Of a stretch of DNA of 64,000 nucleotides, positions 1,841-43,728 are shown piece by piece. Numbering within the stretch: the first letter of the stretch is position 1; each line of letters starts with the position of its first letter. Made by a program: the position numbers and the translations under genes. The stretch is from a virus (lineage: Duplodnaviria; Heunggongvirae; Uroviricota; Caudoviricetes), in IMG/VR virus record IMGVR_UViG_3300048016_000310; one strand, written 5' to 3'. The notes below the pieces were generated by a model. That model was given only the letters and a program-made list of their open reading frames with translations. It searched no databases and was not told the DNA's origin.

Positions 1841-2538
1841 TCTGTAGTAGGTTTAAGCCAGAGTCCTGTATGGTCAAAAGCATATTTTTGCAAAGCTTCA
1901 AATTTGTAAAGCATTTTTAAAGTTGCCATTGTATTAAACTTAAAACATTTGTAAAGTTCTTCTCTAACTCTTTCAATACTTATTGTAGAATAATCATAAG
2001 AATAATGTAAAGCGTCTGCTACATTATCTGACAAATTAAACTTTTTGGTTATAGAAAATCTTATAGCTCTGAAAATTCTTAGAGGATCATCTTTAAAAGT
2101 TATATAAGCATCTAAAGGAGTATCGATAAGTCTTAATTTTAAATCTTCTATACCTCTACCTGTTAAATCTATGATTTCTCCATCTTTTTCAAATAAAGTG
2201 TTGATTGTAAAGTCTCTTCTCCAAACGTCGTCTGCAATAGTTCCAGGAGCTAAAATAGGCTGCCTTGTATTAGGATAATATCCTAATTCTTTTCTTGCAA
2301 GAACAAAATCAGCTACAAGACCTGCATTTTCATGAATGGTAGGAAACTTAGCCCTAACTGTATAACAAGATTCAGTTGCAAGAAAAATTTGATACCCTTG
2401 TAATTCTAGGTAAGTAGTCATTTCTTTCCAAGCTAAATCTATAGTACTTGCAGTAGGAATTACTACAAAATCCCTATCTTTAGATTGAATCTCAAGTAAT
2501 CTGTCTCTAATAGACCCTCCTATTTCATATATTTCCAT
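1834..2538 (-). CDS. cca: Class II tRNA nucleotidyltransferase (CCA-adding enzyme / polyA polymerase family), head+neck domain
   Basis: Motifs IGGSIRDRLL (GGxVRD), DRDFVV (DxD), RRDFTINTL and DDPLRIFRAIRF are all hallmarks of class II nucleotidyltransferases. Confidence 0.8.
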   Translation of the reverse strand: MEIYEIGGSIRDRLLEIQSKDRDFVVIPTASTIDLAWKEMTTYLELQGYQIFLATESCYTVRAKFPTIHENAGLVADFVLARKELGYYPNTRQPILAPGTIADDVWRRDFTINTLFEKDGEIIDLTGRGIEDLKLRLIDTPLDAYITFKDDPLRIFRAIRFSITKKFNLSDNVADALHYSYDYSTISIERVREELYKCFKFNTMATLKMLYKFEALQKYAFDHTGLWLKPTTEC

Positions 2539-4739: not shown

Positions 4740-4942
4740 AATAGTATAAATCTTACGTTTAAGTTTCCTTTTGTTTTTCTAGAATCTTTCAGAGTAGTTT
4801 CAATTTTGTATTTTACTACAGATTTTTTGTAACGCAGTTCGATTATAGAACCTGAACTTAAATCTTTTTGAAATCTTCTTACTTTTCTTTTTACAGTTTT
4901 AAAAGAATTTCCTACTTTTGTGTTATTTACGTAGATGTTCAT
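4736..4942 (-). CDS. hypothetical small basic protein
   Basis: 68-aa ORF with a 4-nt overlap with flanking genes (translational coupling pattern). Confidence 0.3.
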   Translation of the reverse strand: MNIYVNNTKVGNSFKTVKRKVRRFQKDLSSGSIIELRYKKSVVKYKIETTLKDSRKTKGNLNVRFILL

Positions 4943-5481
4943 AAAAATAAATTGTTTAAATAATTTAACATTTCTGGATATTTTTTTGCATTCACACTTC
5001 TTGTAAAATGTTCATTTTCTTGTCTATACATATCAAACTGCCTTGATTTAGTCATTTTTGAATACTGTACGTTGGCAATTCTATCACAAAGTTTTACAAA
5101 AGTTGCACCTTTTGTGTTTTTTATACCTTTGTAGTATTTTGCATTGGCTCTTTCTGCTCTTGTTTTACCTTTCTCATTAGTACAAGCAAAGATAATATCA
5201 GCAATATCAGAACCTAATTGCATCTTCACGTCGTTGTAAGAAGCTCTTGTATCTTCTATAGAATCGTGTCCATAGCAAGCTAAGTAAATAGTTCTTGCTG
5301 TTATATCTACTCCAGAAAAAGAATCTATAAAAGTGTTTATAGGTAACAAATGCATGAAATCTTCAGCTACTTGTGCTACCATTTGTAAATGAAACTTATA
5401 AGGTAAGTACTTATCATAAAAATGATTAGTCTTTTCATGTAGCCCTATAAGCCAATCAATTTGTTGTTGTAATGGGCTCAT
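4939..5481 (-). CDS. HD-domain metal-dependent phosphohydrolase (small, ~180 aa)
   Basis: H...HD...D pattern with LACYGHDSIEDT (HD motif followed by ED), as in RelA/SpoT-HD, YfbR-like or dNTP/dNMP hydrolases. Its size matches small stand-alone HD hydrolases. Confidence 0.55.
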   Translation of the reverse strand: MSPLQQQIDWLIGLHEKTNHFYDKYLPYKFHLQMVAQVAEDFMHLLPINTFIDSFSGVDITARTIYLACYGHDSIEDTRASYNDVKMQLGSDIADIIFACTNEKGKTRAERANAKYYKGIKNTKGATFVKLCDRIANVQYSKMTKSRQFDMYRQENEHFTRSVNAKKYPEMLNYLNNLFL

Positions 5482-5837
5482 TAATATATGTCTCCTGATA
5501 CTGTTTTAACTGAACCAAAAATTTTCTGGGCTTGAACATCTCCAGATACTGTAGTAACATTTCCTCCAACATCTTTACAATTCACATCTCCAGAAGTAGT
5601 TTTTATATCTCCTTCAACAAGACCTGCTTGAATATCTCCAGAAGTACTGGTAATAGCCTTAGCATTTTCAACAGAAATACTTGCTGCATAGTCTACATGC
5701 AAAGAATTTATTGTATCTATTTTGATATGAATCTCTTTGTCACTTGGTAATGATTGAGACTTTCCATCAATTATAACATTGTTATTGATTATCTGAACAT
5801 TATTGCCCTGATATTTGACTCCGTTTATGATTATCAT
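5481..5837 (-). CDS. repeat protein with reiterated (T/V)SGD(I/V) units (beta-helix / bactofilin-like)
   Basis: 118 aa containing TSGDI, TSGDV, VSGDV and VSGDI repeats at roughly 10-residue spacing. Confidence 0.4.
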   Translation of the reverse strand: MIIINGVKYQGNNVQIINNNVIIDGKSQSLPSDKEIHIKIDTINSLHVDYAASISVENAKAITSTSGDIQAGLVEGDIKTTSGDVNCKDVGGNVTTVSGDVQAQKIFGSVKTVSGDIY

Positions 5838-6219
5838 AATTTTCTAAAAGTTTTTGCATATTTTCTTTCCCAACAGGATTTGCTGTTTGAAAATAATATA
5901 CAGGTAATGGTAAATTGTTTTCTTCGCAGTAGTTTATAAGCCACTTAACACAGTCATATCCAGTCTTTTCTTGGACTTTTGAGTAGTCAAAGTCTTTAAA
6001 GTCCTGCTCTATAGCATGATTCATAGCTTTTTCTCCTAAATCATGGTCAAAGAATATAACTTCTGGTAATCCCAAGGTAGATATATCATGTACAAAGTGT
6101 TCAAAAGATTTCACCCAGCCTATGTCGCTGAGTGAAACTTCTGGAGCAGCTTGAAATATTAATCTAATCCAAGGAGATGTTAAAGGGTCTCTCAAATCAT
6201 CAAGCCACAAAATTCTCAT
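5800..6219 (-). CDS. hypothetical protein (possible Rossmann/receiver-like fold)
   Basis: 139-aa ORF. N-terminal MRILWLDD and VIFFDHDLGE are reminiscent of flavodoxin-like folds. No firm assignment. Confidence 0.4.
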   Translation of the reverse strand: MRILWLDDLRDPLTSPWIRLIFQAAPEVSLSDIGWVKSFEHFVHDISTLGLPEVIFFDHDLGEKAMNHAIEQDFKDFDYSKVQEKTGYDCVKWLINYCEENNLPLPVYYFQTANPVGKENMQKLLENYDNHKRSQISGQ

Positions 6220-7307
6220 AATACATATTGAATGTTCTTGAAGCTTCTTTCTAGATAAAATAAAGCTTCTTCTGTTTTATTTATTTCATCACCAGTTTTA
6301 GAGTCATAGCTTCTGGTAACTTTCATGCCTTTAACTACTTCTCCACCTTCAAAAAAACCCATTCTTTCAAGACCATACAAGTAGATATTTGAATCTTTTT
6401 TACGTTCTTGATGAAAGTAATTACCTTGTTCAAGATTAGAAGAATCTTCAAAATAACTTTCAAAGTTGTAATCAGTGTAATGTTTAGTTCCAATTTTGGC
6501 TCCAAGTTTAAAAGGCTCTTTACTTTCCAAATGATGAATATGATATGTAGCTCTCTCAACAATGTAGTTGAAGAAAGATTTGAACTGACTGTAAGGACAT
6601 CCAGTTAAATTAACTTCTTCTATAATTTTGACAAGTATGTCAATGTTTAAAGTATCTACATCCAAATTTTCAATTAAATCATCTACAAAAGCTTTGTCTT
6701 GTAGCTTGTCATCTATGATTTCTTGAATCACAGCTTGGTCAAGTTTGTAGTAACTACGAACATAACGTAATCTAGAAGGTCTGTTATAGAAATGAGTTTC
6801 AATTTTTGCATTTGAAGTGATGATAAACAACTTCTTTGTATTGCTTTTGTTGTTTCCATCCAAAAAACTCAAAAATTCCATTTGACTTACTTTTTCAGAT
6901 TCATCATGAAAAATTTTTTCAAACTCATCAATGTAAACTACAAAAGGATTCTCAATCTTGTTTAGCAAGTCAAACATACCTGAATGCGTATTTTTTGTAA
7001 TATGCACAATCGGTAGATTTAAAGATTGAGTTAAAACTTTGGCAGTGAAACTCTTACCTAATCCAGGTTTACCATAAAGCATAATGCCTAATGAATCATC
7101 ACTCTTTGAGAATACGTTTTGAACATGCTCAATAAAAAGTTTGTCATTAGAATAAATTTTATCAGGCAAAGTTTGAGGCTCTGATTCTTCTAAAAAAAGT
7201 CTTCCAAAAGCTCCTTCTTGAAGTTTGTATTCTTTGGTAGGAAGTAAGTCAAAAGTCTCAATATTTTCGTAGAAACTGTATTCTTTACCTGTTTTAATAA
7301 TTTGCAT
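6216..7307 (-). CDS. AAA+ ATPase
   Basis: Walker A GKPGLGKSFTAKVL and Walker B-like VVYIDEFEK. Confidence 0.6.
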   Translation of the reverse strand: MQIIKTGKEYSFYENIETFDLLPTKEYKLQEGAFGRLFLEESEPQTLPDKIYSNDKLFIEHVQNVFSKSDDSLGIMLYGKPGLGKSFTAKVLTQSLNLPIVHITKNTHSGMFDLLNKIENPFVVYIDEFEKIFHDESEKVSQMEFLSFLDGNNKSNTKKLFIITSNAKIETHFYNRPSRLRYVRSYYKLDQAVIQEIIDDKLQDKAFVDDLIENLDVDTLNIDILVKIIEEVNLTGCPYSQFKSFFNYIVERATYHIHHLESKEPFKLGAKIGTKHYTDYNFESYFEDSSNLEQGNYFHQERKKDSNIYLYGLERMGFFEGGEVVKGMKVTRSYDSKTGDEINKTEEALFYLERSFKNIQYVL

Positions 7308-7313
7308 AATTAT

Positions 7314-9056
7314 TTATTTGTTTATTTTTGCTCTAATTTGTTCAAATGTCTGCTGGTTGAAGAATTTTCCATCTTCATATATTACTTGTAGTAGACCTTG
7401 AGCCTCTTCTTCTTCAGTACATTCTTGTTTAACAATTAAGGTGTCACCTTCTGGTTCTTCATAATCGTTATGTACAGCACACATTCCTTTCAAAGACTTT
7501 TTAGTCCCATCATCTGTTACTGGGTCTTTGTAGATATTGTAAGAAGTTGTTTCTAAACCAGGATATGTTCCATAACCAGTAGGTTCTTTTACTTCTTGAA
7601 CTTGAAACCAAGCTCCTTTTGCTGCAAAACCTGCTGTATCTCTTGTCATATACACATAAGTGTATGAACCTATGCCAAGAACAATATTTGTGGCAGCAAA
7701 GCCTTTATTTGCAAGTCTAGAGTAAATTTGTACTTGTCTTTCTAAAGTTATTGAATCACCATAGATTGCTCCAATATGCGAGTCTAAGCGTTTATAGCCA
7801 GTAGAAGTCTCAACTGTACCAAAAATATCAGCAAGCAACTCAATTACTCCTTTCTTTTCATTTATAGAGATTTCTTGAGTCATAGCTTCATCTCTAAAGT
7901 AGGTAGTAATACCATCTTTAGTATATTCAGTTCTATTTCCTATTCCACAAGTAATTTCTACAGGGTCTCCAGAGTCAGGTCTAATTACAAGTTTTCCATC
8001 TCTAGCCATAATCAAAGATTTCAATCTAGGCAGAATATGCGTAATCAACTTCCATAAATCCATTGTATCAGAAACTACTGACAAAATGCCTTTAGGAAAT
8101 TTCAATAGCCAATCTCTAAGATTCAAGAGTTCTGCTATAGCAAGATAGTCGGGATTTTCGACTGAACCTTCAGAAGGAGCATCAAAAGCATAATAGTCTT
8201 TAATCTCTTGGTCTAGTTTACCATCTTTTAGCTTAGCTTCATAGTAAAATATTCCAGTACAAGTAACAGAATGTTCTGAAGCCAAAACTGAATTGATAAG
8301 AACTTTATCATCTGCAACATCATAGTAGTAACGAGATGCTGGAATTACATTAAGTGTATCAGAACCAGAATTTGACAAAGCATGACCAAGACCTACTGCT
8401 ATTGAGGTAAATGGATTACCTCCTCTTGAATGAAAATCATGACACATGTAATCTGCAAGCCATAAATTTTCAGGGTCTGTTTTGTTTACCCATTCTACTG
8501 CATTTTTCTTAAATTCAAATCCAAGAGTAGCAGCAATTGGCATTTGCCACGAAAGCTTTGATACCAAAGTCTCAAGGAACAAACCTAACCAAGCATATCC
8601 ATCAACAGTATTGATACCTGTCATATGTGGAATATTTGGAGGAGTAAACATACCTTCTGGCAAAGCTTTGATTTTTACAGGCAAATAACCTAAATCCCAA
8701 AGTGCAGCAAAATGTTCTCCATCGTAAGGCATACCAAAGTAGAAACTTAAATCTTCAGCAAATTTTAAAGCTTGATTTTTATGTTTATGCCAAGCTAAAG
8801 TTTCTTTTCTAAAAGTTTTTCTTTTTTCTGTAAAGAAAAAGCATTCAGAAAAAGCTGAATGAATGTATCTCCAAGTAAATTGTTGACCAGCAGACATGAT
8901 TTTTGTTATGCTTTTTGGCATGTACTTAAGATTTCTTGGAATCCATGTAAAGTACTCTTTGTTTGTTCCAGGAGCAAGCATTTCTTTATGCCCTGGTTTG
9001 TAACCATCTGCTTCATACAAAGGATTTATGCGAAACATTGTTTCTAGTTTTTCCAT
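7314..9056 (-). CDS. nadV: nicotinamide phosphoribosyltransferase-like protein (Nampt/NadV family; alternatively Namat-type nicotinamide ADP-ribose transferase)
   Basis: 580 aa. N-terminal DGYKPGH motif and overall NAPRTase-family signature (YK..H, GxGS, SEHS). Confidence 0.8.
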   Translation of the reverse strand: MEKLETMFRINPLYEADGYKPGHKEMLAPGTNKEYFTWIPRNLKYMPKSITKIMSAGQQFTWRYIHSAFSECFFFTEKRKTFRKETLAWHKHKNQALKFAEDLSFYFGMPYDGEHFAALWDLGYLPVKIKALPEGMFTPPNIPHMTGINTVDGYAWLGLFLETLVSKLSWQMPIAATLGFEFKKNAVEWVNKTDPENLWLADYMCHDFHSRGGNPFTSIAVGLGHALSNSGSDTLNVIPASRYYYDVADDKVLINSVLASEHSVTCTGIFYYEAKLKDGKLDQEIKDYYAFDAPSEGSVENPDYLAIAELLNLRDWLLKFPKGILSVVSDTMDLWKLITHILPRLKSLIMARDGKLVIRPDSGDPVEITCGIGNRTEYTKDGITTYFRDEAMTQEISINEKKGVIELLADIFGTVETSTGYKRLDSHIGAIYGDSITLERQVQIYSRLANKGFAATNIVLGIGSYTYVYMTRDTAGFAAKGAWFQVQEVKEPTGYGTYPGLETTSYNIYKDPVTDDGTKKSLKGMCAVHNDYEEPEGDTLIVKQECTEEEEAQGLLQVIYEDGKFFNQQTFEQIRAKINK

Positions 9057-9086
9057 TATCTTTTGGAATTTTTGTTTTTAAATAAG

Positions 9087-9518
9087 TTAAACATAAGTAT
9101 ATTTATTGAGTAATAGCCAAACTAGTAATTCTAGTTCTGCATATGTTTGTATGAGTCCTCCTCTGTCATCGAGATAAGCATTCGCATATAGCTTTCTAGG
9201 TATTAAAGAACAGTCTGAATTGTATAAAAACTTTAGGCCAGCAGGACTTTCCTCATTTATCGAATGATATGGAATATTATTTTCTGCTAGATATGTTTTT
9301 ATAAACTCTGTATTTTTGTTTGCAGTCCATATAATAATGTGACATCCTATTTTATGTAAATCTCTAACTAGTTGAAACATCATTTCATAGGTTTCTCCTT
9401 TTTTATGAAAATCATATAATGTTGAGTCAAAATCTACAGCTATAATAAGTCCTTTATGTTTATGGTACTCTTCCCACAATCTCTTAAATTGAGCATTTGG
9501 TTTTAAAAATTCATCCAT
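9087..9518 (-). CDS. HAD-superfamily phosphatase (possible nucleotidase)
   Basis: DFDSTL (DxDxT motif I) near the N-terminus. Small cap-less HAD size. Confidence 0.5.
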   Translation of the reverse strand: MDEFLKPNAQFKRLWEEYHKHKGLIIAVDFDSTLYDFHKKGETYEMMFQLVRDLHKIGCHIIIWTANKNTEFIKTYLAENNIPYHSINEESPAGLKFLYNSDCSLIPRKLYANAYLDDRGGLIQTYAELELLVWLLLNKYTYV

Positions 9519-9972
9519 TTAATTCAGTTTTTACGTAAACATGACCTTCTATTAACATACACAAAGTTTCAAGTTCATGAGTATGAACTATACCAAATTT
9601 CTCACAAACTTTTAACACATTTCTGTATCTATAAAATTCTGGTGGGCAACAAACATACAATTTCAAAGAGTTAGCATGTAAACCTAATTCTAACAAACTA
9701 ATTGGACTTTTAGAATCTGGCAAAAAGTTTAAAATGATAATATCACATTTTTGCATAGCTTCTAATTCCCAATCAATCTGCTTGTCTATTTCTTCATCAG
9801 AAGCACTTGAAGCCCATTGCTTTCTTCTTGGATTGTATATGTCAAGATTTAAATCTTTCCATCTTTCTACTAATTTGTCTTGCCAATCTGTAGAATTACC
9901 ATCATCTATTGTACCACCTAAGAATACAGTTAATTTTGGAAATATTGGTTCAGGTGCTGTGAATATGCTCAT
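9511..9972 (-). CDS. nucleoside 2-deoxyribosyltransferase-like protein
   Basis: FLGGTIDDG N-terminal Rossmann-like start and PISLLELGLHA (conserved Glu in a PxxxxELG context), as in NDT/Rcl family. Confidence 0.45.
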   Translation of the reverse strand: MSIFTAPEPIFPKLTVFLGGTIDDGNSTDWQDKLVERWKDLNLDIYNPRRKQWASSASDEEIDKQIDWELEAMQKCDIIILNFLPDSKSPISLLELGLHANSLKLYVCCPPEFYRYRNVLKVCEKFGIVHTHELETLCMLIEGHVYVKTELNG

Positions 9973-10246
9973 TTTTCTGGGTTATATGGTGATTATATTG
10001 AGACAATGCTTGCTCTTTTGAAGGAAATAAATAAGCATCTACTTCATTTCTAAATCTTTCTTTGTATGATAAAATACCACAAATTCTAATAGTATAGAAA
10101 ATAGAATACTGGCTGTACATAACTAAAGATTTTCTATTTAGACTTTGAATTTCTACTATTTCATAGTCTTCATAGTCTGGTTTTATCTGATAATGTGATA
10201 TATACCACATTAAGATAATTAGAGAACCTAAAAATATTAATGGCAT
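9950..10246 (-). CDS. small membrane protein
   Basis: 98-aa ORF with an N-terminal hydrophobic segment. Confidence 0.3.
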   Translation of the reverse strand: MPLIFLGSLIILMWYISHYQIKPDYEDYEIVEIQSLNRKSLVMYSQYSIFYTIRICGILSYKERFRNEVDAYLFPSKEQALSQYNHHITQKNEHIHST

Positions 10247-10626
10247 AAGTAATAATAAGTTAAAAATAATTGTAAATAGTGCAAAACTTGATCCGCCCCT
10301 ATATAAGTAAATGCTCCAAAATTTGGAACAGCAGAACCTAGTTCTTTTTTATCAAACTTTTCTGCAACTAACCGAGAAGTAAAATAATCAGTTATTGTAT
10401 GTGCTACAAAAGTTATAAAAGCAAAAGCAGCTACATCTAAAGGTTTAAATTTACCATTAAACATAAAAGCTAATCCTACCCATAACCATACTGCTGAATA
10501 AACTACTGTATGAGTAATTAAAGGTTCAAATTTTTTTGACTTACCTAAAGCCCACTCTTCATCTTGACATATGAAATCTGCTACAAAATGTATAAAGATT
10601 ATTGAAAAAATCTCTACAAGTGTCAT
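10237..10626 (-). CDS. integral membrane protein
   Basis: 129 aa with several hydrophobic helices. Confidence 0.4.
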   Translation of the reverse strand: MTLVEIFSIIFIHFVADFICQDEEWALGKSKKFEPLITHTVVYSAVWLWVGLAFMFNGKFKPLDVAAFAFITFVAHTITDYFTSRLVAEKFDKKELGSAVPNFGAFTYIGADQVLHYLQLFLTYYYLCH

Positions 10627-11489
10627 AAAATTACAAGTTTATCTTGAAATTGATAAGGAACTACATATTCTAATTGTTTTGAATTTGTAGTAAAAATTTT
10701 GTCATATAGTTCAAACAACAAAGGATTTGGATTAGGGACAGTTAAATGACTTATTGCTAAGTTCAATTTACCTATATTTCTTTCTCTAAAAAGTTTAGCA
10801 AGTCCTATAAATGTTCCTCCATATAAACACATGTCATCTACGATGAGTAAATCTTTACCTTCAAAATTGTCCCTTAAAACTTCTTGTGTAAGTTCAGATT
10901 TTCCATGAACATATTTTCTAGCTTTCAAAGCTGAAAATGTTTCTCCTTTCCAATCAAGTTTGTCACAAAGTTTCTGCAAAGGTTTGTTTCCACCAGCATC
11001 AGAAGACACTAAAATTAAGTTTTTAGTATCTCTAGTAGTATAATCTCCTTCAAACATAGTCAAAGGTACTTTTTTTCCTTCTTCATCATAAGCTTGAGGG
11101 CTGGTAATAATGTCTAATACTTGCTTTATAAACAGCGAGTTATCCAAAATTACTGAGTTATTAGTTAAAGCAGGAGTTACATCTGAATGAGGATGAAAAA
11201 TTATAACTTGACCAAAGTTCAAAGAATTCAAAAAATTTGCAACAATCTTAAGATTGAAACTTTCATTTGGTTCAAACTGTCTGTCTGCTTGTTGGTCTAT
11301 CATGCAATTAATTTTTATGATACTTTTTGAAGCATCAATTAAACTTGCACATTGAGCTAAAAACCATAAGTCTTCGTAGGAGTTTAAATACACATTAAAA
11401 ATCCCATGTGAAATGTCTTCGAGTTTTGTAGCATAAAAAGTACCATCAGGATACTTTGTTTTTTTAAAGACTTCTGTAAGTTCTTTCAT
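10623..11489 (-). CDS. prs: ribose-phosphate pyrophosphokinase-like protein (Prs family; alternatively Adps-type ADP-ribose pyrophosphokinase)
   Basis: LLIVDDMCLYGGTFIGLAKLFRERNIGK closely matches the Prs PRPP-binding loop ([25 protein letters not shown]) at the expected position. Length is 288 aa. Confidence 0.7.
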   Translation of the reverse strand: MKELTEVFKKTKYPDGTFYATKLEDISHGIFNVYLNSYEDLWFLAQCASLIDASKSIIKINCMIDQQADRQFEPNESFNLKIVANFLNSLNFGQVIIFHPHSDVTPALTNNSVILDNSLFIKQVLDIITSPQAYDEEGKKVPLTMFEGDYTTRDTKNLILVSSDAGGNKPLQKLCDKLDWKGETFSALKARKYVHGKSELTQEVLRDNFEGKDLLIVDDMCLYGGTFIGLAKLFRERNIGKLNLAISHLTVPNPNPLLFELYDKIFTTNSKQLEYVVPYQFQDKLVIL

Positions 11490-11959
11490 AGTTCTGTTAA
11501 AAATTGTTTAAATAATCTTTTAATTTTAAATAAATGAGCCTTATTTTCATAGGGATTTATAAAATTCTGAAGAACAAATTCTTCTGGAACTCTATGTAAA
11601 GATATTGTTACAAAAGAAGTTGGAAAAAATCTAGAATCGCAAGGACATAATATACTAGCACAATCTTCTGATGTAGTCAAAGTTAAAGAATAACAAATAC
11701 CATTCTTTTTTTTTATTACTACAGCTGGATGTCTAAATCCTGTAACTGTATAAACATCTCCTACTCTTACTTCTGTTACAACTCTTTCATGTTTAAGTTT
11801 CATAGAAGCTAAAGCCCCTCTTACTTCAGCTTTTGTCCAATTGTCTTTTTCATTAAAAAGTTCTATAAGTTCTTCTCTTGTTTTTGCTTGCATATTTGTA
11901 TTAATTCTGGTAATGTTATAAATTGAGAATCTAATCCTCTTAAACCTATTTGTAACCAA
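11486..11959 (-). CDS. hypothetical protein (true start probably the internal Met near 11893)
   Basis: The ORF overlaps the upstream helicase by ~97 nt. The internal MQAKTREEL start would reduce the overlap. Confidence 0.35.
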   Translation of the reverse strand: MVTNRFKRIRFSIYNITRINTNMQAKTREELIELFNEKDNWTKAEVRGALASMKLKHERVVTEVRVGDVYTVTGFRHPAVVIKKKNGICYSLTLTTSEDCASILCPCDSRFFPTSFVTISLHRVPEEFVLQNFINPYENKAHLFKIKRLFKQFLTEL

Positions 11960-13149
11960 ATGCTGTCACTAGGTATAATTTCATCGAAAGGCTCTATTAC
12001 AAAGTTGATAACCATTGGTGCTTTATCGGGATTATTTGGGTCTACTCTTAAAATTCTACCTAATGACTGAACTGCTGATTGTTTAGTAGAATCAAAAGAT
12101 TCTCTTAAAATACATTCTGCTGTTTCATCATCAAGCCCTGCAATAAGTTTGTAAACTGAAGAAATTTTAGCATTTTCAGATTCTAGAAATGCATTTAGAT
12201 TTTTAGTAGCAACTTTTGCTGATTGTTGTGAATGATATAGTAAACAGGTACTGTCAAGTTTAGCTATTTCTTTAGCTTTTGCAATACTTTTTGAAAATAA
12301 AATAGTTTTTTTGTACAAGTAAGGGTATAATTCTCGTAGATATACGAGCTTATTTTGAGCATTACTTAAAAGCCCAATTCTTTTTGTTCTAGTTCTAAGC
12401 CAGTTGAAGTTTATTCCTACTGCTTGAGGTTCTTGTGTTAAAGCTTTAATTTGTGCAGCACTTACTAAAGGTTTATCTACACCAAAGTTTGAAAAATAAG
12501 TTTTGCATCTGGATTCTTGTTCTGTAACAGCTTTATATAAAAGTTGTTCTTGTTTAGTAAAAGGTACATAAACATTGTATATTTCAAATTCTGGGACAAG
12601 TTCAAGCAAAGAAGCTTCTTGTAAAGAAATATGAAATTCATCTTTAAGTCCTATTGTTTGAAAAAATCGTAATTGTTCATTCTTTAAAGTAGCACTTAAA
12701 AATAACCTAAATTTAGGCTTAAAATTATGAATATTTGCAAAACCTGTTCCTTCTTTAGCTACTCCAATATGACATTCATCGACTATTAATAGTAGAGGAT
12801 TTTGTGGAGGCAGCTTACTATATGTATTTATTATGAAAATTTTAATATTTTCAATACCTTGTGTGTGAGTTTGCCACTGTTCTAACAAAGCATTTGTAGG
12901 CAAGACTATATGAATTTCTCCAAGCGATTGTTTTCGCAGAAGCTTTATAATCTTTAAAGCAAATACAGTCTTACCTGTAGCAGTAGCCCATGTACATAAA
13001 AGTTGTCCTTTAGTTTCAATAAAATACTTTATTCCAATATCTTGAATTAAATCTCTCTTCTTGAACTTATCAGGTTCTTTTTGTATTGCTTCTATATGGA
13101 TTTGTTGTAATTTATACTTCATAATGCACAATATATGTATTAGGTACAT
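11863..13149 (-). CDS. superfamily-2 DEAD/DEAH-box helicase
   Basis: Walker A CTWATATGKT, DEAD-like LLIVDECH, SAT-like motif LSAT. Confidence 0.7.
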   Translation of the reverse strand: MYLIHILCIMKYKLQQIHIEAIQKEPDKFKKRDLIQDIGIKYFIETKGQLLCTWATATGKTVFALKIIKLLRKQSLGEIHIVLPTNALLEQWQTHTQGIENIKIFIINTYSKLPPQNPLLLIVDECHIGVAKEGTGFANIHNFKPKFRLFLSATLKNEQLRFFQTIGLKDEFHISLQEASLLELVPEFEIYNVYVPFTKQEQLLYKAVTEQESRCKTYFSNFGVDKPLVSAAQIKALTQEPQAVGINFNWLRTRTKRIGLLSNAQNKLVYLRELYPYLYKKTILFSKSIAKAKEIAKLDSTCLLYHSQQSAKVATKNLNAFLESENAKISSVYKLIAGLDDETAECILRESFDSTKQSAVQSLGRILRVDPNNPDKAPMVINFVIEPFDEIIPSDSIWLQIGLRGLDSQFITLPELIQICKQKQEKNL

Positions 13150-13660
13150 AATCTGTTAACCATACATTATTTTCAGTAAGAAAAAATTTATAACCATCTT
13201 TATGCATTTCTAAAGCTTTTACTTCTAGTGCAATAGGGTCTCCATGTCTTAATCCTGTAAGTAAAGCTATTTGAAAATTTTCAGTTAAGTGTGCGGCATG
13301 TCTTTTTTGTTTTTTTATACCTTCTACTCTGATTAAATGCTCTACTTCTTTACAAGTACCATGATATAAAATCTTTGGAGGTACTGAAGGCTTTAACTGT
13401 AAATCTACATCAAATGAGTGTCCTTGCAAAGCTCTAATTTTTTTACTATCTTCTGAAAATTCAAATCTTTTTTTGTTGTTTGTAGCAACGATGTGCTTTA
13501 GTTTTTCTTCTGTTATCTGTAACTCCCTACAAATAAAAGAAGCATCAGCCCACCCAGTAGAATCTACTAAATGTGGCTGATGTCTTAAAATGTAACTTAA
13601 CTTAGTCATGAAATTGAACTTCACCGCATCTTTGTAAAGGCTGATACAGTGAAGGGTCAA
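13112..13660 (-). CDS. kptA: RNA 2'-phosphotransferase Tpt1/KptA (NAD-dependent). Likely start is MTKLSYILRH at ~13609.
   Basis: KLSYILRHQP, GWA, IRALQGHS, LYHGT and a GI...R...HVHL-like C-terminal region are all conserved Tpt1/KptA blocks. Confidence 0.75.
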   Translation of the reverse strand: MTLHCISLYKDAVKFNFMTKLSYILRHQPHLVDSTGWADASFICRELQITEEKLKHIVATNNKKRFEFSEDSKKIRALQGHSFDVDLQLKPSVPPKILYHGTCKEVEHLIRVEGIKKQKRHAAHLTENFQIALLTGLRHGDPIALEVKALEMHKDGYKFFLTENNVWLTDYVPNTYIVHYEV

Positions 13661-14657
13661 AAGTTTTTAAATCTTCAGTACAAGTTACATGGATATACGT
13701 AGAACAATCTATATTTAAGCCTTCTTTAATAAGCCTTTTATTTGTTTTTATTGCATACTCACAAAGGTCTAAGTTTATTGGAGCAACTTTAAAGGCTCCT
13801 TGAAACTCATTACTTACATTTGTTTCTCTAAGGTCAGGCTTTAATTCTACAGTTTCTTCAGAAAAAGGCCCAAAACCATGTCTTGTTTGATAAGCTCTGG
13901 TTACACAATGTAATTTTACATCAGAAAGATTATGTCCTCTAATTTTGTACTTTTTTAATAACGATACAGCATTTTTTACTGTTGTTGATGCATGAGTTAC
14001 ATTAGGAAAATAACCAAAATCTTCATCTAAATAAAAACCTTGATTTCCTTCAAATATAATATTAGAATAATAAGTAGGATTTCTATCATAAGTAGCTTTT
14101 ATCATCCATTTAGAAGCATCTAAAAACGCAGAAATTTCATTTTCTAAAAGCTCTGTATTGTTATAATATCTTCTAACAGACTCTAATTTTTGCAAAATAT
14201 GCCATTCAGGAGCAAATAAATCTGCAAAAATAAAACTTACTCCATCATTCATACGTTTTTGAGTAGTATGAATACCTTTTCCAGTAGTTGCACCTAAACT
14301 TTCCGAATTTTCTTGATTGGCTATAACATCAAAAGGAGTTATAATTGGGCAATTTTTATCTACAACCAATTCAGAAGACATATGAAATGTTTTTAAGATA
14401 AGGTCGCATTCTCTTTTTAACATTTCTGGAGATACTAAAACTTTTGGACCTATAAATCCAGCATTTCCAGTAGAAAAATTTGCTGGAATACTAGAACAAA
14501 TATGAGTTTTAGCATTTATTCTAATAGTATGTCCACAATTGGGTCCTCCACCAGTTCTTACAGCTGTACAATCTCTTAATTCATTTGCAAGTTTATTTAC
14601 AATACGACCTTTACCTTCATCTCCAAATCCAATACCAACTACTATATGTCCTACCAT
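13602..14657 (-). CDS. adenylosuccinate synthetase homolog, short archaeal/PurZ-like form (351 aa)
   Basis: GFGDEGKGRIV (P-loop GDEGKGK), RTGGGPNCGHTI (GxNAGHT), GATTGKGI (GTTGRGIGP), EGNQG (EGAQG). About 80 aa shorter than bacterial PurA. Confidence 0.8.
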   Translation of the reverse strand: MVGHIVVGIGFGDEGKGRIVNKLANELRDCTAVRTGGGPNCGHTIRINAKTHICSSIPANFSTGNAGFIGPKVLVSPEMLKRECDLILKTFHMSSELVVDKNCPIITPFDVIANQENSESLGATTGKGIHTTQKRMNDGVSFIFADLFAPEWHILQKLESVRRYYNNTELLENEISAFLDASKWMIKATYDRNPTYYSNIIFEGNQGFYLDEDFGYFPNVTHASTTVKNAVSLLKKYKIRGHNLSDVKLHCVTRAYQTRHGFGPFSEETVELKPDLRETNVSNEFQGAFKVAPINLDLCEYAIKTNKRLIKEGLNIDCSTYIHVTCTEDLKTFDPSLYQPLQRCGEVQFHD

Positions 14658-30154: not shown

Positions 30155-31113
30155 TAGTTAAGAGTTAATAGAAAGCCAATTGTAAAGTTGGCATCCCAGT
30201 CAAAAATGTATTTTGTAGGTATCTCTTGCACCATTGCTGAATAAATGTTTAAGCCAGATTTAAGCTTTACATCATCACCAAAAGAATATTCTTCTGGAGC
30301 TTTTAGAAGCGTAAAACGCTCTTCTGCATTTCTAGATTCTTTTGCAAGTTTAAATGGAACTCCACCAATGATAAAGCAATTCTCCCTTTGAGAAGTAGGA
30401 ATTGTTTTTAAAGCAACTTTTATAGCTGTAGCAACTTCATCATCTGTTTTTCCATCTTGATAATATTTAGCACCTGGAGCTTCTACTGAAAATGGATTAC
30501 CATTTTTATATGAAGTAATCTTAGTATTTCCAGAACCAATATCTACAACAAATGAATTAGAACGATAAGACTTAGGCAGTAAAGCTTTTAATGCATACTT
30601 AGCCTCTTGGTCAGCAGTAACTCTATTTACTACATAACCCATATCTTCTATAGCTTTAGCAATTAATTCAGTCTTTTTATTCTTTAAAGCACCTGATGAC
30701 ATAACGAAATGTGCATTACGACCTGCTACACCTCTTTCAAACATCTTGGCAAGATACTTTTTTATTCCTGTTTGTACATCAAGAGTAGTAATAAACCCTT
30801 CATAAGCTAAAGATTCACCAAACTCTTTTGATATTAATTCCCAATTATCTTGTTTATCAACTTCTACTACAAATGAGTTGAATCCTGAAGCACCAACTTC
30901 AATTACTCCAAGTTTTTTACCGTTAATAGGTCTTTCTGTTTGAATGTTAATTGAAGAGGCTGTAGATGAAGGGATTAGATCAATATTCTCTATTGTAAGA
31001 ACTTTCTCTGGCTCAGAAGGCAAGACATCTGGATGTTTATAAGTATAATACTTAAATCCAGCTAGTGCTAAGACTAGCAATACTACGATTCCTAAAACGA
31101 TTTTCTGTTTCAT
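30154..31113 (-). CDS. ASKHA-superfamily (actin/Ppx-GppA-like) ATPase-fold protein with N-terminal TM anchor
   Basis: Phosphate-1/2-like motifs GVIEVGASGFNSF and VVDIGSGNTKIT. N-terminal hydrophobic helix. Confidence 0.4.
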   Translation of the reverse strand: MKQKIVLGIVVLLVLALAGFKYYTYKHPDVLPSEPEKVLTIENIDLIPSSTASSINIQTERPINGKKLGVIEVGASGFNSFVVEVDKQDNWELISKEFGESLAYEGFITTLDVQTGIKKYLAKMFERGVAGRNAHFVMSSGALKNKKTELIAKAIEDMGYVVNRVTADQEAKYALKALLPKSYRSNSFVVDIGSGNTKITSYKNGNPFSVEAPGAKYYQDGKTDDEVATAIKVALKTIPTSQRENCFIIGGVPFKLAKESRNAEERFTLLKAPEEYSFGDDVKLKSGLNIYSAMVQEIPTKYIFDWDANFTIGFLLTLN

Positions 31114-31553
31114 AATTCTGATCTGATTTTCATTAATAATAAACCTAATTTATTTTCACCAACATTATCGTAAATTGAGACTCCCCAAATTTTATCATTC
31201 CAATTATTCCACTCAATGATTTGTGAATCACCTGTGGCTTTTAACTGAGATTTCCAAGGGTCTCTCGAAAACTTAATACGTAGAGCTTTTTCCATTACAG
31301 ATTCTTTAACCTGTTCCCAATCTTGTCTTAATAGGACACTTCTTCCAAGTCTTTTTGATTCTGAAGGAGTTACTTTTCTAAAAGAATATTGTACTGTAGG
31401 TTCTATACTTTTTTGAGCTTGAAAATAATTCTCTACTGAAGGCCATTGTACACCATCAATTATTAAAGGTGTAATTTCCATGTTTGAGAACCAATTATAA
31501 ATCCATTTTCCTCTGTACGAAAATTCTTCTGGTTTATGTTCTTGCCAATTCAT
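31110..31553 (-). CDS. NADAR-domain protein (YbiA-like)
   Basis: GKWIYNWFSNMEITPLIIDGVQWPSVENYFQAQK...SKRLGR matches the NADAR signature (FSNF...PF..DG..Y.S.EHYFQA.K...AK.LGR). Confidence 0.65.
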   Translation of the reverse strand: MNWQEHKPEEFSYRGKWIYNWFSNMEITPLIIDGVQWPSVENYFQAQKSIEPTVQYSFRKVTPSESKRLGRSVLLRQDWEQVKESVMEKALRIKFSRDPWKSQLKATGDSQIIEWNNWNDKIWGVSIYDNVGENKLGLLLMKIRSEL

Positions 31554-43486: not shown

Positions 43487-43728
43487 TGTTACTTACATTA
43501 ACAAACTGTCCTCCATGTAATTTGGTTAAGCAGTATTTAAACGCTCAACAAAAGGTAATCCCTTCTTTATTATATGAAAGAGGTAGGGATTCTTGGACTG
43601 AAGAGCAATTAGACTACGTAAATCGCTATAAAGTTATGAGTTTTCCTACATTAGTCACTGAAGAAGATGGAGTTATTGTAGGTTCACAAAACATTATAAA
43701 TTACATAAGTACACATGATTCAATTTGA
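43483..43728 (+). CDS. glutaredoxin/NrdH-like thioredoxin-fold protein
   Basis: CPPC active-site motif near the N-terminus in an 81-aa protein. Confidence 0.55.
   Translation: MMLLTLTNCPPCNLVKQYLNAQQKVIPSLLYERGRDSWTEEQLDYVNRYKVMSFPTLVTEEDGVIVGSQNIINYISTHDSI

What the first reader, a model, noticed from the sequence alone, without database searches (positions are those of the whole stretch)
7314..11489. NAD-centred accessory cluster (Nampt/NadV-like + Prs-like + HAD phosphatase + deoxyribosyltransferase-like, with NADAR and NAD-dependent Tpt1 nearby), without a recognisable NMNAT
A Nampt-family protein (7314..9056) and a Prs-family pyrophosphokinase (10623..11489) lie 1.5 kb apart, with a HAD phosphatase and an NDT-like protein between them. 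A NADAR-domain protein lies at 31110..31553.

No NMN adenylyltransferase (NadM/NadD-like) is apparent in the window. Classical phage NAD salvage pairs NadV with NMNAT.

A Prs-like plus Nampt-like pair without NMNAT matches the recently described NAD-reconstitution pathway NARP1 (Adps + Namat). That pathway rebuilds NAD+ from ADP-ribose to counter NAD-depleting defences (TIR/Thoeris, DSR/SIR2, some CBASS). NADAR domains hydrolyse ADP-ribose adducts, including DarT-type guanine ADP-ribosylation of DNA, and so may be another counter-defence component.

Alternatively the cluster simply boosts PRPP/NMN supply.
Basis: partly seen in the sequence, partly recalled or inferred. Interest (0 to 1): 0.7.

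Follow-up and report, generated by a model that had tools for sequence, protein, structure and literature searches.

The report
Phage NAD-rebuilding operon with extra phosphatase
An uncultured crAss-like phage carries the known two-enzyme NARP1 pathway, which rebuilds NAD+ from ADP-ribose and nicotinamide to defeat NAD-depleting bacterial immunity, and here four extra genes sit between the two enzymes, one of them a small HAD phosphatase that across many phages is found almost only beside this pathway.

Summary
Six overlapping or nearly abutting minus-strand genes span 7314-11489: Adps-like (Prs fold), DUF3307 membrane protein, a 98-aa ORF, a PF15891 deoxyribosyltransferase-like protein, a capless HAD phosphatase, and Namat-like (Nampt fold).

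The NARP1 reading is supported.
- The Nampt-like protein has the Namat adenine-clamp motif (GSYTYVYMTRD). It matches Bas63 Namat at 19 of 20 ligand-contact positions and groups with Adps-linked Namats, apart from NMNAT-linked Nampts (100% bootstrap).
- The Prs-like protein scores far below every Prs cut-off. It keeps the catalytic Lys and Adps-type positions and nests among validated Adps proteins.
- No NMNAT, Nudix or Macro domain was found in the 64 kb.

The core is therefore a new member of a known system.

The HAD gene goes beyond published work.
- In 49 related loci, 14 carry it, always inside the Adps-Namat pair.
- Of 79 HAD-seeded loci, 84% have Adps or Namat within 500 nt.
- The literature searches here found no report linking a HAD phosphatase to NARP1.

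I propose the HAD is a non-homologous counterpart of the Macro phosphatase of NARP1-AP. This is inferred, not shown.

The NADAR protein resembles YbiA, so a DarT-reversal role is poorly supported.

The parts
10623..11489 (-). Adps-like protein (ADP-ribose pyrophosphokinase, Prs fold), 288 aa. It is the first gene of the module.
   Evidence: Family scores: PF00156 27 bits; PHROG 619 E 9e-37; TIGR01251 44 bits against a cut-off of 113.

Phylogeny: in the NJ tree it nests among phage Adps proteins, between the validated Bas63 and SPbetaL1 Adps. Seven cellular Prs split off with 77% bootstrap.

Conserved residues: K189 aligns with SPbetaL1 K162 and ICP1 K185. H101, D164, R191, D218, D219, C221 and F227 are also conserved.

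Changes specific to its sub-clade: R87->Q67, D216->L222 and G217->Y223.
10237..10626 (-). DUF3307 membrane protein, 129 aa, predicted as four helices.
   Evidence: PF11750 E 1.6e-9. His, Asp and Gln residues are invariant across homologs. The AF2 model has pLDDT 84, and no PDB fold match is better than E=1. It lies next to Adps or Namat in 6 of 49 related loci. Its function is unknown.
9950..10246 (-). 98-aa ORF with a hydrophobic N-terminus and no homologs found.
   Evidence: JGI also calls this gene. No Pfam, PHROG or NCBIfam hit. Found in 0 of 49 related loci.
9511..9972 (-). PF15891 nucleoside 2-deoxyribosyltransferase-like (DrHyd superfamily) protein, 153 aa.
   Evidence: PF15891 E 6e-28. 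The best PDB match is 4mcj, an uncharacterised protein, at E 1.5e-27. Conserved motifs are FLaG, PRR, WEL and sPIxLlElG, the last holding the family's candidate catalytic Glu. It lies inside the Adps-Namat pair in 5 of 49 related loci (L037, L054, L055, L063, L077); L030 is the same contig as L077.
9087..9518 (-). Capless HAD-type phosphatase, 143 aa. It is a candidate third enzyme of the pathway.
   Evidence: Family and fold:
- PHROG 1238 E 8e-25; weak match to the NCBIfam BT0820 family; no Pfam family.
- Motifs DxDxT, T, K and DD are invariant.
- The AF2 model has pLDDT 91. Its nearest PDB folds are BT_0820, T4 PNKP phosphatase and the phage arabinose-1,5-bisphosphate phosphatase AfhF.

Gene context:
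- 14 of 49 Adps-seeded loci carry it, and all 14 copies lie inside the Adps-Namat pair.
- 66 of 79 HAD-seeded loci have Adps or Namat within 500 nt.
- It also abuts NARP1 in Bacillus phages Tomato and W.Ph., in Lak-C1 and in PTm1.
7314..9056 (-). Namat-like protein (nicotinamide ADP-ribose transferase, Nampt fold), 580 aa.
   Evidence: The best PDB matches are 9w5w/9w5x, whose sequence and numbering match SPbetaL1 Namat, at 279 bits. Human Nampt scores 99 bits.

The SCH motif GSYTYVYMTRD fits the consensus GSX.X.X.TRD. The SCL has K44-Y45.

Of 20 ligand-contact positions, 16 are identical to SPbetaL1 and 19 to Bas63. The catalytic His, F208, D233 and R359 are kept.

The split from NMNAT-linked Nampts has 100% bootstrap.
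31110..31553 (-). NADAR-domain protein, YbiA-like, 147 aa. It lies 20 kb from the cluster and is only loosely connected to it.
   Evidence: PF08719 E 2.5e-22. TIGR02464 scores 77.4 bits, above its 73.7 cut-off. It is closest to E. coli YbiA 2b3w. A NADAR gene lies between Adps and Namat in L005 and L030/L077, and near Namat in L003.
13112..13609 (-). Tpt1/KptA RNA 2'-phosphotransferase. It consumes NAD+ and yields ADPR-1'',2''-cyclic phosphate. It is a neighbour, not a conserved part of the module.
   Evidence: PF01885 E 7.6e-34. JGI calls a 165-aa gene. Found in 0 of 49 related loci.
5800..6219 (-). cREC_REC domain protein, a predicted cyclic-phosphate-processing enzyme. It lies two genes downstream of Namat. 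It is a neighbour, not a conserved part of the module.
   Evidence: PF20274 E 7.8e-17. Found in 0 of 49 related loci. The predicted role is taken from PMC9503650.

Best explanation
The cluster is a NARP1 NAD+ reconstitution operon of an uncultured crAss-like phage, probably infecting Bacteroidota.

Proposed mechanism:
- A host defence (SIR2, TIR, SEFIR and similar) cleaves NAD+ into ADP-ribose and nicotinamide.
- The Adps-like enzyme (10623-11489) uses ATP to pyrophosphorylate the 1'' position of ADP-ribose, giving ADPR-PP.
- The Namat-like enzyme (7314-9056) replaces the pyrophosphate with nicotinamide, giving NAD+ directly. No NMNAT is needed.

These two steps are inferred from homology, clade membership and conserved active-site and specificity residues. 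They are not shown biochemically for this sub-clade.

Four extra genes lie between the two core genes. The capless HAD phosphatase (9087-9518) most likely acts as a feeder or recycling enzyme. It would remove a phosphate from a phosphorylated ADP-ribose species so that the product re-enters the pathway as ADP-ribose. Candidate substrates are ADPR-1''-phosphate made by aRES-type defences, decay products of ADPR-PP, and 2'-phospho-ADPR from NADP. On this view it is a non-homologous counterpart of the Macro phosphatase Adpp of NARP1-AP.

The PF15891 protein may be a glycosidase that releases ADP-ribose, or a ribosyl phosphate, from a modified precursor. This is more speculative.

The roles of DUF3307 and the 98-aa ORF are unknown.
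For: Namat identity:
- It matches the SPbetaL1 Namat structures at 279 bits, against 99 bits for human Nampt.
- Its SCH motif GSYTYVYMTRD and SCL K44-Y45 fit the published selectivity-clamp rule. NMNAT-linked Nampts of nt-1, BcepSauron and RpAliso have GGGLLQ-type loops instead.
- Its 20 ligand-contact residues read DYKFHRDARDGDSGSYYTRD, against Bas63 DYKFARDARDGDSGSYYTRD.
- The NJ split between Namat and Nampt has 100% bootstrap.

Adps identity:
- It falls below all seven NCBIfam Prs cut-offs.
- It shares PHSDVTPAL, the catalytic K189 and R191, and the DD motif. It has Adps-type C at ICP1 position 215 and F at 221, where Prs has I/A and L/I.
- It nests inside the phage Adps radiation.

Linkage:
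- Namat lies within the fetched flanks (up to 10 kb each side) in 47 of 49 loci carrying this Adps sub-clade. NMNAT homologs appear in none.
- No NMNAT, Nudix or Macro domain is present in the window.
- The genes overlap.

HAD as a pathway component:
- All 14 HAD copies in the Adps-seeded loci lie inside the Adps-Namat pair, in both gene orders. Median HAD pairwise identity is only 31%.
- 66 of 79 HAD-seeded loci have Adps or Namat within 500 nt.
- The same linkage occurs in Bacillus phages Tomato and W.Ph., in Lak-C1 and in PTm1.
- The catalytic motifs are invariant.
- The window's other neighbours are essentially absent from the related loci: helicase, Tpt1, AdSS and cREC in 0 of 49, AAA in 2 of 49. 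Shared synteny therefore does not explain the HAD link.

Precedents for feeder enzymes embedded in NARP1 are Adpp and RyDEP.
Against: - No enzyme of this Adps sub-clade has been assayed.
- The sub-clade has invariant substitutions at positions that contact ADPR or ATP in the ICP1 Adps structure: R87->Q, D216->L and G217->Y.
- The split between cellular Prs and phage Adps has only 77% support. It comes from a small NJ tree with seven Prs sequences.
- The window is 64 kb of a larger genome, so an NMNAT elsewhere cannot be excluded.
- The substrate of the HAD is unknown. Its nearest folds include nucleic-acid 3'-phosphatases of the PNKP type.
- In Listeria phage AG20 no HAD gene lies within 4 kb of NARP1, although a HAD homolog occurs in 53 Listeria phage records.
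- Many of the HAD-seeded loci come from a single sample and may be related phages.
Confidence: 0.8

Rival explanations
1. Classical salvage reading. The Prs-like enzyme makes PRPP and the Nampt-like enzyme makes NMN. A host NMNAT (NadD or NadR), or a phage NMNAT outside the window, completes NAD+. This would be a NARP2-like or plain PRPP/NMN booster.
For: Public annotations and PHROG names call these genes ribose-phosphate pyrophosphokinase and nicotinamide phosphoribosyltransferase. SPbetaL1 Namat can still make NMN from PRPP in vitro. Only 64 kb of the genome was examined.
Against: - The Prs-like protein reaches 44 bits against a cut-off of 113 for TIGR01251. It groups with Adps proteins, not with Prs.
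- The Nampt-like protein carries the adenine clamp and groups with Adps-linked Namats, 100% apart from NMNAT-linked Nampts.
- None of 49 related loci has an NMNAT homolog.
- Published data say NARP1 and NARP2 never co-occur and that Adps does not use ribose-5-phosphate.
Confidence: 0.1
2. The core is NARP1, but the intervening genes are unrelated passengers. On this view the HAD is a nucleic-acid 3'-phosphatase or nucleotidase and PF15891 is a dNMP/nucleoside N-glycosidase, both serving nucleotide scavenging or RNA/DNA repair. They would sit there only because phage auxiliary genes cluster together.
For: - The nearest folds of the HAD include T4 PNKP and Pnkp1 phosphatase domains.
- Mycobacteriophage GuuelaD has a kinase plus HAD_PNKP protein directly after Namat.
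- The window neighbourhood holds RNA-repair-type genes: Tpt1, cREC and a PolyA_pol-head enzyme.
- PF15891 is named after deoxyribosyltransferases.
- Homing endonucleases also lie between Adps and Namat in some loci, so the spacer tolerates passengers.
Against: - 66 of 79 HAD-seeded loci have Adps or Namat within 500 nt.
- All 14 HADs in the Adps-seeded set lie inside the gene pair, often with overlapping stop and start codons, in both gene orders and at a median identity of 31%.
- The RNA-repair neighbours of the window are absent from those loci.
- The other embedded genes are mostly ADP-ribose-processing or phosphoesterase families: ADP-ribosylglycohydrolase, NADAR, DrHyd-like and Metallophos.
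Confidence: 0.25
3. The module closes an NAD+ loop for phage RNA repair rather than serving mainly as counter-defence. Tpt1 consumes NAD+ and releases ADPR-1'',2''-cyclic phosphate. cREC opens the cyclic phosphate. The HAD removes the phosphate. Adps and Namat then regenerate NAD+.
For: All five activities are encoded on one strand within 8 kb. The predicted chemistry of KptA and cREC comes from PMC9503650.
Against: Tpt1 and cREC are absent from all 49 related NARP1 loci, whereas the HAD is retained. Any such loop would therefore be a peculiarity of this phage and not the reason for the HAD-NARP1 link. No RNA ligase was identified in the window; only an ATP-dependent ligase runs off its start.
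Confidence: 0.1

Closest known systems
NARP1 (Adps + Namat) of Bacillus phage SPbetaL1, Escherichia phage Bas63 and Vibrio phage ICP1 (Osterman et al. 2024, bioRxiv 10.1101/2024.02.11.579819; PMC12774641; PMC13586617)
   Same: - Both have a Prs-fold and a Nampt-fold gene on one strand, with Adps upstream.
- Both carry the Namat adenine clamp and catalytic core.
- Both keep the Adps catalytic Lys/Arg, the DD motif and the Adps-type PP-loop positions.
- Neither has an NMNAT.
   Different: - The two genes are separated by four other genes (1.57 kb) instead of being adjacent.
- The Adps belongs to a metagenome-only sub-clade. It is about 28-37% identical to Adps proteins of cultured and MAG phages, over partial to full length.
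- That sub-clade has the substitutions R87Q, D216L and G217Y.
- The Namat is 580 aa, with insertions relative to the 491-aa SPbetaL1 enzyme.
NARP1-AP (Adps - Macro phosphatase Adpp - Namat) of Vibrio phage Gary (bioRxiv 10.64898/2026.01.28.702374)
   Same: A phosphatase gene is embedded in the NARP1 operon. The architecture Adps-phosphatase-Namat recurs in many related loci.
   Different: The phosphatase here has a capless HAD fold, not a Macro domain. No Macro domain is present in the window or in the spacers of the related loci. Its substrate is unknown, and activity against aRES is untested.
RyDEP + NARP1 of mycobacteriophage DyoEdafos (bioRxiv 10.64898/2026.05.28.727677)
   Same: The concept is shared: a glycosidase encoded next to NARP1 turns an ADP-ribose derivative into ADP-ribose, which feeds the pathway. 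PF15891 has an N-glycosidase/transferase fold and sits inside the operon.
   Different: PF15891 is unrelated to the RyR-domain fold. No activity is known for it, and its link to NARP1 is weaker (5 of 49 loci).
NARP2 (Nampt + NMNAT/Nudix, Vibrio phage KVP40) and NARP3 (PnuC + NadR, Bas30; PMC13464706)
   Same: All are phage NAD+ restoration pathways that counter NAD-depleting defences.
   Different: The window has no NMNAT, Nudix, PnuC or NadR. Its Nampt-fold protein falls outside the NMNAT-linked clade.

Membership tests
NARP1 | A Nampt-fold protein that belongs to the Adps-associated Namat clade, not the NMNAT-associated Nampt clade. | tested here: met
   In the NJ tree of 18 sequences, the split between the nt-1, BcepSauron and RpAliso Nampts and all Adps-linked proteins has 100% bootstrap. 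The window protein falls on the Namat side.
NARP1 | [quoted passage not shown] | tested here: met
   The window has GSYTYVYMTRD, with Y465 and Y469. The NMNAT-linked Nampts have GGGLLQxxDRD.
NARP1 | A stacking residue in the Namat selectivity-clamp loop: Arg, or Lys/Tyr followed by the stacking residue. | tested here: met
   The window has PRNLK44-Y45, the Lys-then-aromatic variant also seen in Bas63.
NARP1 | The Namat catalytic core: SPbetaL1 F189, R192, D215, R306, D308 and the catalytic His. | tested here: met
   The window has F208, R211, D233, R359 and D361, plus the His in ASEHS.
NARP1 | A Prs-fold protein in the Adps clade, separate from cellular Prs. | tested here: met
   It nests between the Bas63 and SPbetaL1 Adps proteins. 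Seven cellular Prs split off with 77% bootstrap. It scores below all NCBIfam Prs cut-offs. The tree is small and NJ only.
NARP1 | The Adps catalytic Lys and the ADPR/ATP-contact residues of the ICP1 Adps structure (PMC13586617). | tested here: inconclusive
   Conserved: K185->K189, R187->R191, H121, D161, D212, D213, F92, C215 and F221. Changed: F18->Y. Not conserved: R87->Q67, D216->L222 and G217->Y223. SPbetaL1 also lacks D216 and G217.
NARP1 | Adps and Namat lie within 10 genes of each other. | tested here: met
   Four genes lie between them on the same strand. 47 of 49 loci with this Adps sub-clade have a Namat in the fetched flanks.
NARP1 | No NMNAT in the same genome (NARP1 and NARP2 do not co-occur). 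| tested here: inconclusive
   None was found in the 64-kb window or in the 49 related loci. The genome is incomplete.
NARP1 | The enzymatic activities: ADPR + ATP -> ADPR-PP, and ADPR-PP + nicotinamide -> NAD+. | not testable with these tools
   This needs purified proteins and LC-MS.
NARP1-AP | A Macro-domain ADPR-1''P phosphatase (Adpp; PF14519, PF01661 or PF20016) within two genes of NARP1. | tested here: not met
   No Macro hit in the window ORFs or in 54 ORFs lying between Adps and Namat in related loci. A HAD phosphatase occupies the equivalent position.
NARP2 | A PRPP-preferring Nampt plus an NMNAT (NadM-Nudix type). | tested here: not met
   The Nampt-fold protein lies outside the NMNAT-linked clade, and no NMNAT was found.
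NARP3 | A PnuC-like transporter plus a NadR-like bifunctional enzyme. | tested here: not met
   No such Pfam hits in the window. The DUF3307 model has no PnuC or SWEET-like fold match.
Bona fide ribose-phosphate pyrophosphokinase (Prs) | A score above the curated cut-off of TIGR01251 or the NF-series Prs models. | tested here: not met
   It scores 44.1 bits against 113 for TIGR01251, and 21-38 bits against cut-offs of 296-518 for the other models.

The most novel reading that the evidence does not exclude
The window-type capless HAD is PHROG 1238, mis-annotated as 'phosphoheptose isomerase'. It may be a dedicated third enzyme of NARP1, found from Bacillus phages and Lak megaphages to aquatic crAss-like phages. 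It would dephosphorylate a phosphorylated ADP-ribose species back to ADP-ribose, for example ADPR-1''P from aRES-type defences or from ADPR-PP/ADPR-cP decay, or 2'-phospho-ADPR. That would make it an independently evolved, non-Macro equivalent of Adpp, and it would extend the range of NAD-depleting defences that NARP1 can beat. The co-embedded PF15891 and DUF3307 genes would be further feeder or transport components of an expanded NARP1 toolkit.
Probability: 0.4. Interest if true: 0.7.

Novelty: new variant of a known kind. Interest (0 to 1): 0.5.

Why it matters
NAD+ depletion is one of the commonest bacterial anti-phage strategies, and NARP1 is the main known phage answer to it.

The core result extends NARP1 to an uncultured crAss-like lineage and to a large, divergent, metagenome-only Adps sub-clade. 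This is useful for annotation but not surprising.

The more useful result is comparative. A small HAD phosphatase with no Pfam family and a misleading public name is tied to NARP1 in both directions: 14 of 14 copies lie inside the gene pair, and 84% of HAD-seeded loci abut NARP1. The tie holds across very different phages.

The only NARP1-associated phosphatase described so far is a Macro-domain enzyme that defeats the aRES defence. A second, unrelated phosphatase in the same position would imply one of two things. Either evolution converged on the same counter-counter-defence, or a second phosphorylated ADP-ribose product of bacterial immunity or of pathway leakage remains unrecognised.

Both possibilities can be tested directly with a three-gene construct. 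The census of other embedded genes (ADP-ribosylglycohydrolase, NADAR, DrHyd-like, Metallophos) suggests that NARP1 operons are a good place to look for enzymes that process immune ADP-ribose derivatives.

Tried and rejected
- **Nucleotide search:** megablast of 7000-12000 against the phage collection found nothing.
- **First locus search:** The search for related loci with the single Adps protein found nothing in IMG/VR. An alignment-based query was needed.
- **Promoter and terminator scan of 5000-14500:** counts did not exceed the shuffled expectation, so no operon boundaries could be drawn. The host is probably Bacteroidota, whose promoters the scan does not cover.
- **DUF3307:** I tested the idea that it is a PnuC/SWEET-like nicotinamide or NR transporter. 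The AF2 model is confident enough (pLDDT 84), but no PDB match is better than E=1. The idea is neither supported nor excluded.
- **PDB sequence searches:** searches with the HAD and DUF3307 sequences gave nothing meaningful.
- **HAD fusion proteins:** P0128, P0132, P0133 and P0138 were examined for an informative fused domain. The extra ~110 aa has no Pfam match and no similarity to other window proteins.
- **Marginal NMNAT hit:** a tblastn hit of the RpAliso NMNAT at 43444-43698 (E 0.02) turned out to be an 81-aa CPPC thioredoxin-like ORF and was rejected.
- **First bootstrap attempt:** the Biopython distance calculator timed out. It was replaced by a numpy Kimura-distance NJ.
- **NADAR as a DarT antidote:** rejected as the leading reading, because the protein is far closer to YbiA.
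- **Literature:** searches for a HAD-NARP1 link, PF15891 or DUF3307 found nothing relevant.

Full report
**Observation**

The window encodes a run of co-directional minus-strand genes. Between 11489 and 7314 they are:
- a 288-aa Prs-fold protein (10623-11489);
- a 129-aa DUF3307 membrane protein (10237-10626);
- a 98-aa ORF (9950-10246);
- a 153-aa PF15891 nucleoside-2-deoxyribosyltransferase-like protein (9511-9972);
- a 143-aa HAD-like protein (9087-9518);
- a 580-aa Nampt-fold protein (7314-9056).

Consecutive genes overlap by 4-23 nt or are separated by at most 30 nt. Independent JGI gene calls on contigs of the same phage from four samples give the same genes.

**Is there an NMNAT?**

Pfam scans of every ORF of 90 aa or more in the window found no CTP_transf_like, Nudix or Macro domain. 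tblastn with the NMNATs of Burkholderia phage BcepSauron and Ruegeria phage RpAliso gave only one marginal hit. That hit proved to be an 81-aa CPPC thioredoxin-like ORF. The window is only part of the genome, so absence is shown for 64 kb and not for the whole phage.

**The Nampt-fold protein is a Namat**

- Against all PDB sequences, the best matches are 9w5w and 9w5x, whose sequence and numbering match SPbetaL1 Namat, at 279 bits. A bacterial Nampt scores 116 bits and human Nampt 99 bits.
- The structural study of Namat defines an ADPR-PP selectivity clamp. [quoted passage not shown]
- The window protein has GSYTYVYMTRD and PRNLK44-Y45. Three Nampts that sit next to an annotated NMNAT or belong to the KVP40 group have GGGLLQ-type sequences instead.
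- Across the 20 residues that contact NAD+ in the SPbetaL1 structure, the window protein is identical to SPbetaL1 at 16 and to Bas63 Namat at 19. These include the mutationally validated F189, D215 and R306 equivalents and the catalytic His.
- A neighbour-joining tree (489 columns, 500 bootstraps) separates the NMNAT-linked Nampts from all Adps-linked proteins in 100% of replicates. The window protein falls in a 100%-supported group with three IMG/VR phages, Tenacibaculum phage PTm1 and Leptolyngbya phage Lbo-JY46.

**The Prs-fold protein is an Adps, from a divergent sub-clade**

- It reaches only 44 bits on TIGR01251 (cut-off 113) and 21-38 bits on six other Prs models (cut-offs 296-518).
- It scores 128 bits on PHROG 619, the phage 'Prs' family.
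- tblastn finds 1248 phage records. The strongest matches are Vibrio phage SJSY21 (33% over 82% of the query, E 1e-22) and phi92-like phages (37% over 70%). The most complete, full-length matches are the Lak megaphages (27-28%). phi92 and Lak appear as Namat-associated in the original NARP1 tables.
- I built a tree with seven cellular Prs (E. coli, B. subtilis, Rhodococcus, Nostoc, Azospirillum, Rhizorhabdus, Monoglobus). All phage proteins separate from the cellular ones in 77% of bootstraps.
- In that tree the window protein sits in a 99%-supported metagenome-only clade. The clade nests between the validated Bas63 and SPbetaL1 Adps proteins.
- The alignment shows the shared PHSDVTPAL segment and the catalytic Lys (window K189 = SPbetaL1 K162 = ICP1 K185). 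It also shows R191, H101, D164 and D218-D219.
- The window has C221 and F227 at ICP1 positions 215 and 221. There Adps proteins have C/S and F, while Prs has I/A and L/I.
- Against the 2026 ICP1 Adps structures, three contact positions differ in this sub-clade: R87->Q67 (invariant Q), D216->L222 and G217->Y223. SPbetaL1 also lacks D216 and G217. I therefore score this test as inconclusive rather than failed.

**Linkage**

An alignment-seeded search of IMG/VR returned 49 loci that encode this Adps sub-clade.
- A Namat-family ORF lies within the fetched flanks in 47 of them. The two exceptions are truncated loci.
- None has an NMNAT homolog.
- Three further metagenome contigs (179-314 kb) show the same pairing.

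This matches the published defining property of the Adps clade, 97% of which has a Namat within 10 genes.

**Verdict on the core**

The pair is a NARP1 module. NARP1 was described in 2024 and occurs in about 4% of sequenced phages. In that respect this is a new member of a known kind.

**The intervening genes: the HAD**

Published NARP1 operons sometimes include a feeder enzyme. One is the Macro phosphatase Adpp, which converts ADPR-1''P to ADPR and counters the aRES defence. The other is the RyR-domain glycosidase RyDEP, which converts 2'/3'cADPR to ADPR. I asked whether the window's extra genes behave like these.

Starting from Adps:
- In the 49 Adps-seeded loci, the window-type HAD occurs in 14. 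In all 14 it lies inside the Adps-Namat pair, usually with overlapping ORFs.
- Both gene orders occur: Namat-HAD-Adps in five loci and Adps-HAD-Namat in eight, plus one Namat-HAD-NDT-Adps.
- Median pairwise HAD identity is only 31%.
- The window's other neighbours are essentially absent from these loci. Helicase, Tpt1, adenylosuccinate synthetase and cREC occur in 0 of 49, and the AAA ATPase in 2 of 49. Shared synteny therefore does not explain the HAD.

Starting from the HAD:
- Seeding IMG/VR with the HAD alignment gave 306 relatives.
- Of the 79 best loci analysed, 66 (84%) have Adps or Namat within 500 nt of the HAD. Both genes are present in 65, and nine have neither.

The same adjacency occurs in cultured and MAG phages:
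- Bacillus phages Tomato and W.Ph. have Adps-Namat-HAD, where the HAD is annotated 'hydrolase' or 'phosphoheptose isomerase'.
- Prevotella megaphage Lak-C1 has HAD-Adps.
- Tenacibaculum phage PTm1 has HAD-Namat.
- IMG/VR locus L004 has Namat-Adps-HAD.

Properties of the protein:
- It has all four HAD catalytic motifs invariant (DxDxT, T, K, DD).
- It has no Pfam family.
- It gives a confident capless HAD model (pLDDT 91).
- Its nearest solved folds are BT_0820, a V. cholerae structural-genomics protein, PNKP-type phosphatase domains, and the phage arabinose-1,5-bisphosphate phosphatase AfhF. All of these matches are at modest scores.

The literature searches here found no paper connecting a HAD phosphatase with NARP1.

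**The intervening genes: the others**

- PF15891 lies inside the Adps-Namat pair in 5 of 49 loci, and it also occurs in several HAD-seeded loci.
- It conserves an FLaG loop, a PRR pair and an ElG motif. The nearest structure, 4mcj, is uncharacterised.
- DUF3307 abuts Adps or Namat in 6 of 49 loci. It has invariant His, Asp and Gln residues in a four-helix membrane bundle, and no informative fold match.
- A Pfam census of 54 other ORFs lying between Adps and Namat found ADP-ribosylglycohydrolase, DUF1937/DUF4406 (also DrHyd-like) and calcineurin-like phosphoesterase, two members each. It also found NADAR neighbours and homing endonucleases, but no Macro, RyR or Nudix domains.
- The picture is that NARP1 spacers recurrently recruit ADP-ribose-processing glycosidases and phosphoesterases. 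This fits the division of labour predicted for such domains by Iyer et al. 2022.

**Mechanism proposed**

- Inferred from homology and from published work on homologs: Adps makes ADPR-PP from ADP-ribose and ATP. Namat then joins nicotinamide to it, giving NAD+.
- Inferred from gene context only: the HAD returns a phosphorylated ADP-ribose species to the ADP-ribose pool, by analogy with Adpp. Candidates are aRES-derived ADPR-1''P, the ADPR-P/ADPR-cP decay products of ADPR-PP noted in the original study, and 2'-phospho-ADPR from NADP.
- In this particular phage, Tpt1 (13112-13609) and a cREC protein (5800-6219) could also generate ADPR-1''P from NAD+ during RNA repair. They are not conserved with NARP1, so this is at most a local addition.

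**Side claims**

- The NADAR protein (31110-31553) passes the TIGR02464 cut-off and is closest to E. coli YbiA (84.6 bits). The guanine de-ADP-ribosylating NADAR 8bau scores 28 bits.
- NADAR genes do sit between Adps and Namat in L005 and L030/L077. A small-molecule N-glycosidase role in ADP-ribose metabolism is therefore more plausible than reversal of DarT.
- The phage has a crAss-type capsid and tail ring proteins. Its terminase is nearest to Lbo-JY46 (31%) and Cellulophaga phi4:1 (27%). GC content is about 31%. These features suggest a Bacteroidota host.

**Unexplained**

The window Namat is 62-65% identical to those of L003-L005. The Adps genes beside those Namats, however, are only about 29% identical to the window Adps and belong to another sub-clade. 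The two genes have evidently been re-paired during evolution.

**Limits**

- The trees are small and NJ only.
- The loci from IMG/VR are not phylogenetically independent, and many HAD-seeded loci come from one sample.
- ORFs were called mechanically.
- No biochemical evidence exists for this Adps sub-clade, the HAD, PF15891 or DUF3307.

**Scores**

The core finding is ordinary: a known system in a new lineage. The HAD association is a solid and, as far as the literature searches here show, unreported comparative result with a clear experiment attached. Overall interest is 0.5, and the novelty class is new variant of a known kind.

Noticed in passing
window 1834-2538, 4939-5481, 5800-6219, 13112-13609 (minus strand); L026 20427-20867: An RNA-repair-looking gene set surrounds the NARP1 block. 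It comprises a PolyA_pol-head (CCA-adding type) nucleotidyltransferase, an HD-like protein, a cREC_REC cyclic-phosphate-processing domain and Tpt1/KptA. An ATP-dependent ligase runs off the window start.
   Followed up: partly
window 13602-14657 (minus strand): A phage-encoded adenylosuccinate synthetase (PF00709, E 5e-37) overlaps the start of Tpt1.
   Followed up: no
window 7314-9056 versus 10623-11489; loci L003-L005, L001: The partners appear to have been swapped. The window Namat is 55-65% identical to those of four related phages. The Adps genes beside those Namats, however, are only about 29% identical to the window Adps and fall in a different sub-clade.
   Followed up: partly
P0128, P0132, P0133, P0138 (metagenome proteins): Close homologs of the HAD (56-61% identity) are fused to an extra C-terminal domain of about 110 aa. 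That domain has no Pfam match and no similarity to other window proteins.
   Followed up: partly
L009 5578-6504 (Mycobacterium phage GuuelaD gp74): A P-loop kinase plus HAD_PNKP phosphatase protein lies directly downstream of Adps-Namat. This is another phosphatase-bearing gene abutting NARP1 in an unrelated phage lineage.
   Followed up: partly
window 44918-63867 (plus strand): The late region encodes a crAss-type major capsid protein and tail ring protein 2. Unspecified late ORFs also hit O-fucosyltransferase and 2OG-Fe(II) oxygenase families. ORF 60298-61680 contains a long Pro/Thr/Val low-complexity stretch.
   Followed up: no
window 43483-43728 (plus strand): An 81-aa ORF with a CPPC motif looks thioredoxin- or glutaredoxin-like. 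It produced a spurious weak tblastn hit to an NMNAT query.
   Followed up: yes
window 6216-7307 (minus strand): An AAA/nSTAND3-like ATPase (PHROG 2376) lies directly downstream of Namat. A homolog sits between Adps and Namat in L069 and L070.
   Followed up: no
L030 / L077 (310-kb contig, JGI 3300017917): This jumbo-phage locus has an 8.5-kb Adps-to-Namat spacer. The spacer holds DUF1937/DUF4406, DUF5662, DUF7666, NADAR and PF15891 genes. An unusually rich set of candidate ADP-ribose-processing genes is thus embedded in one NARP1 locus.
   Followed up: partly
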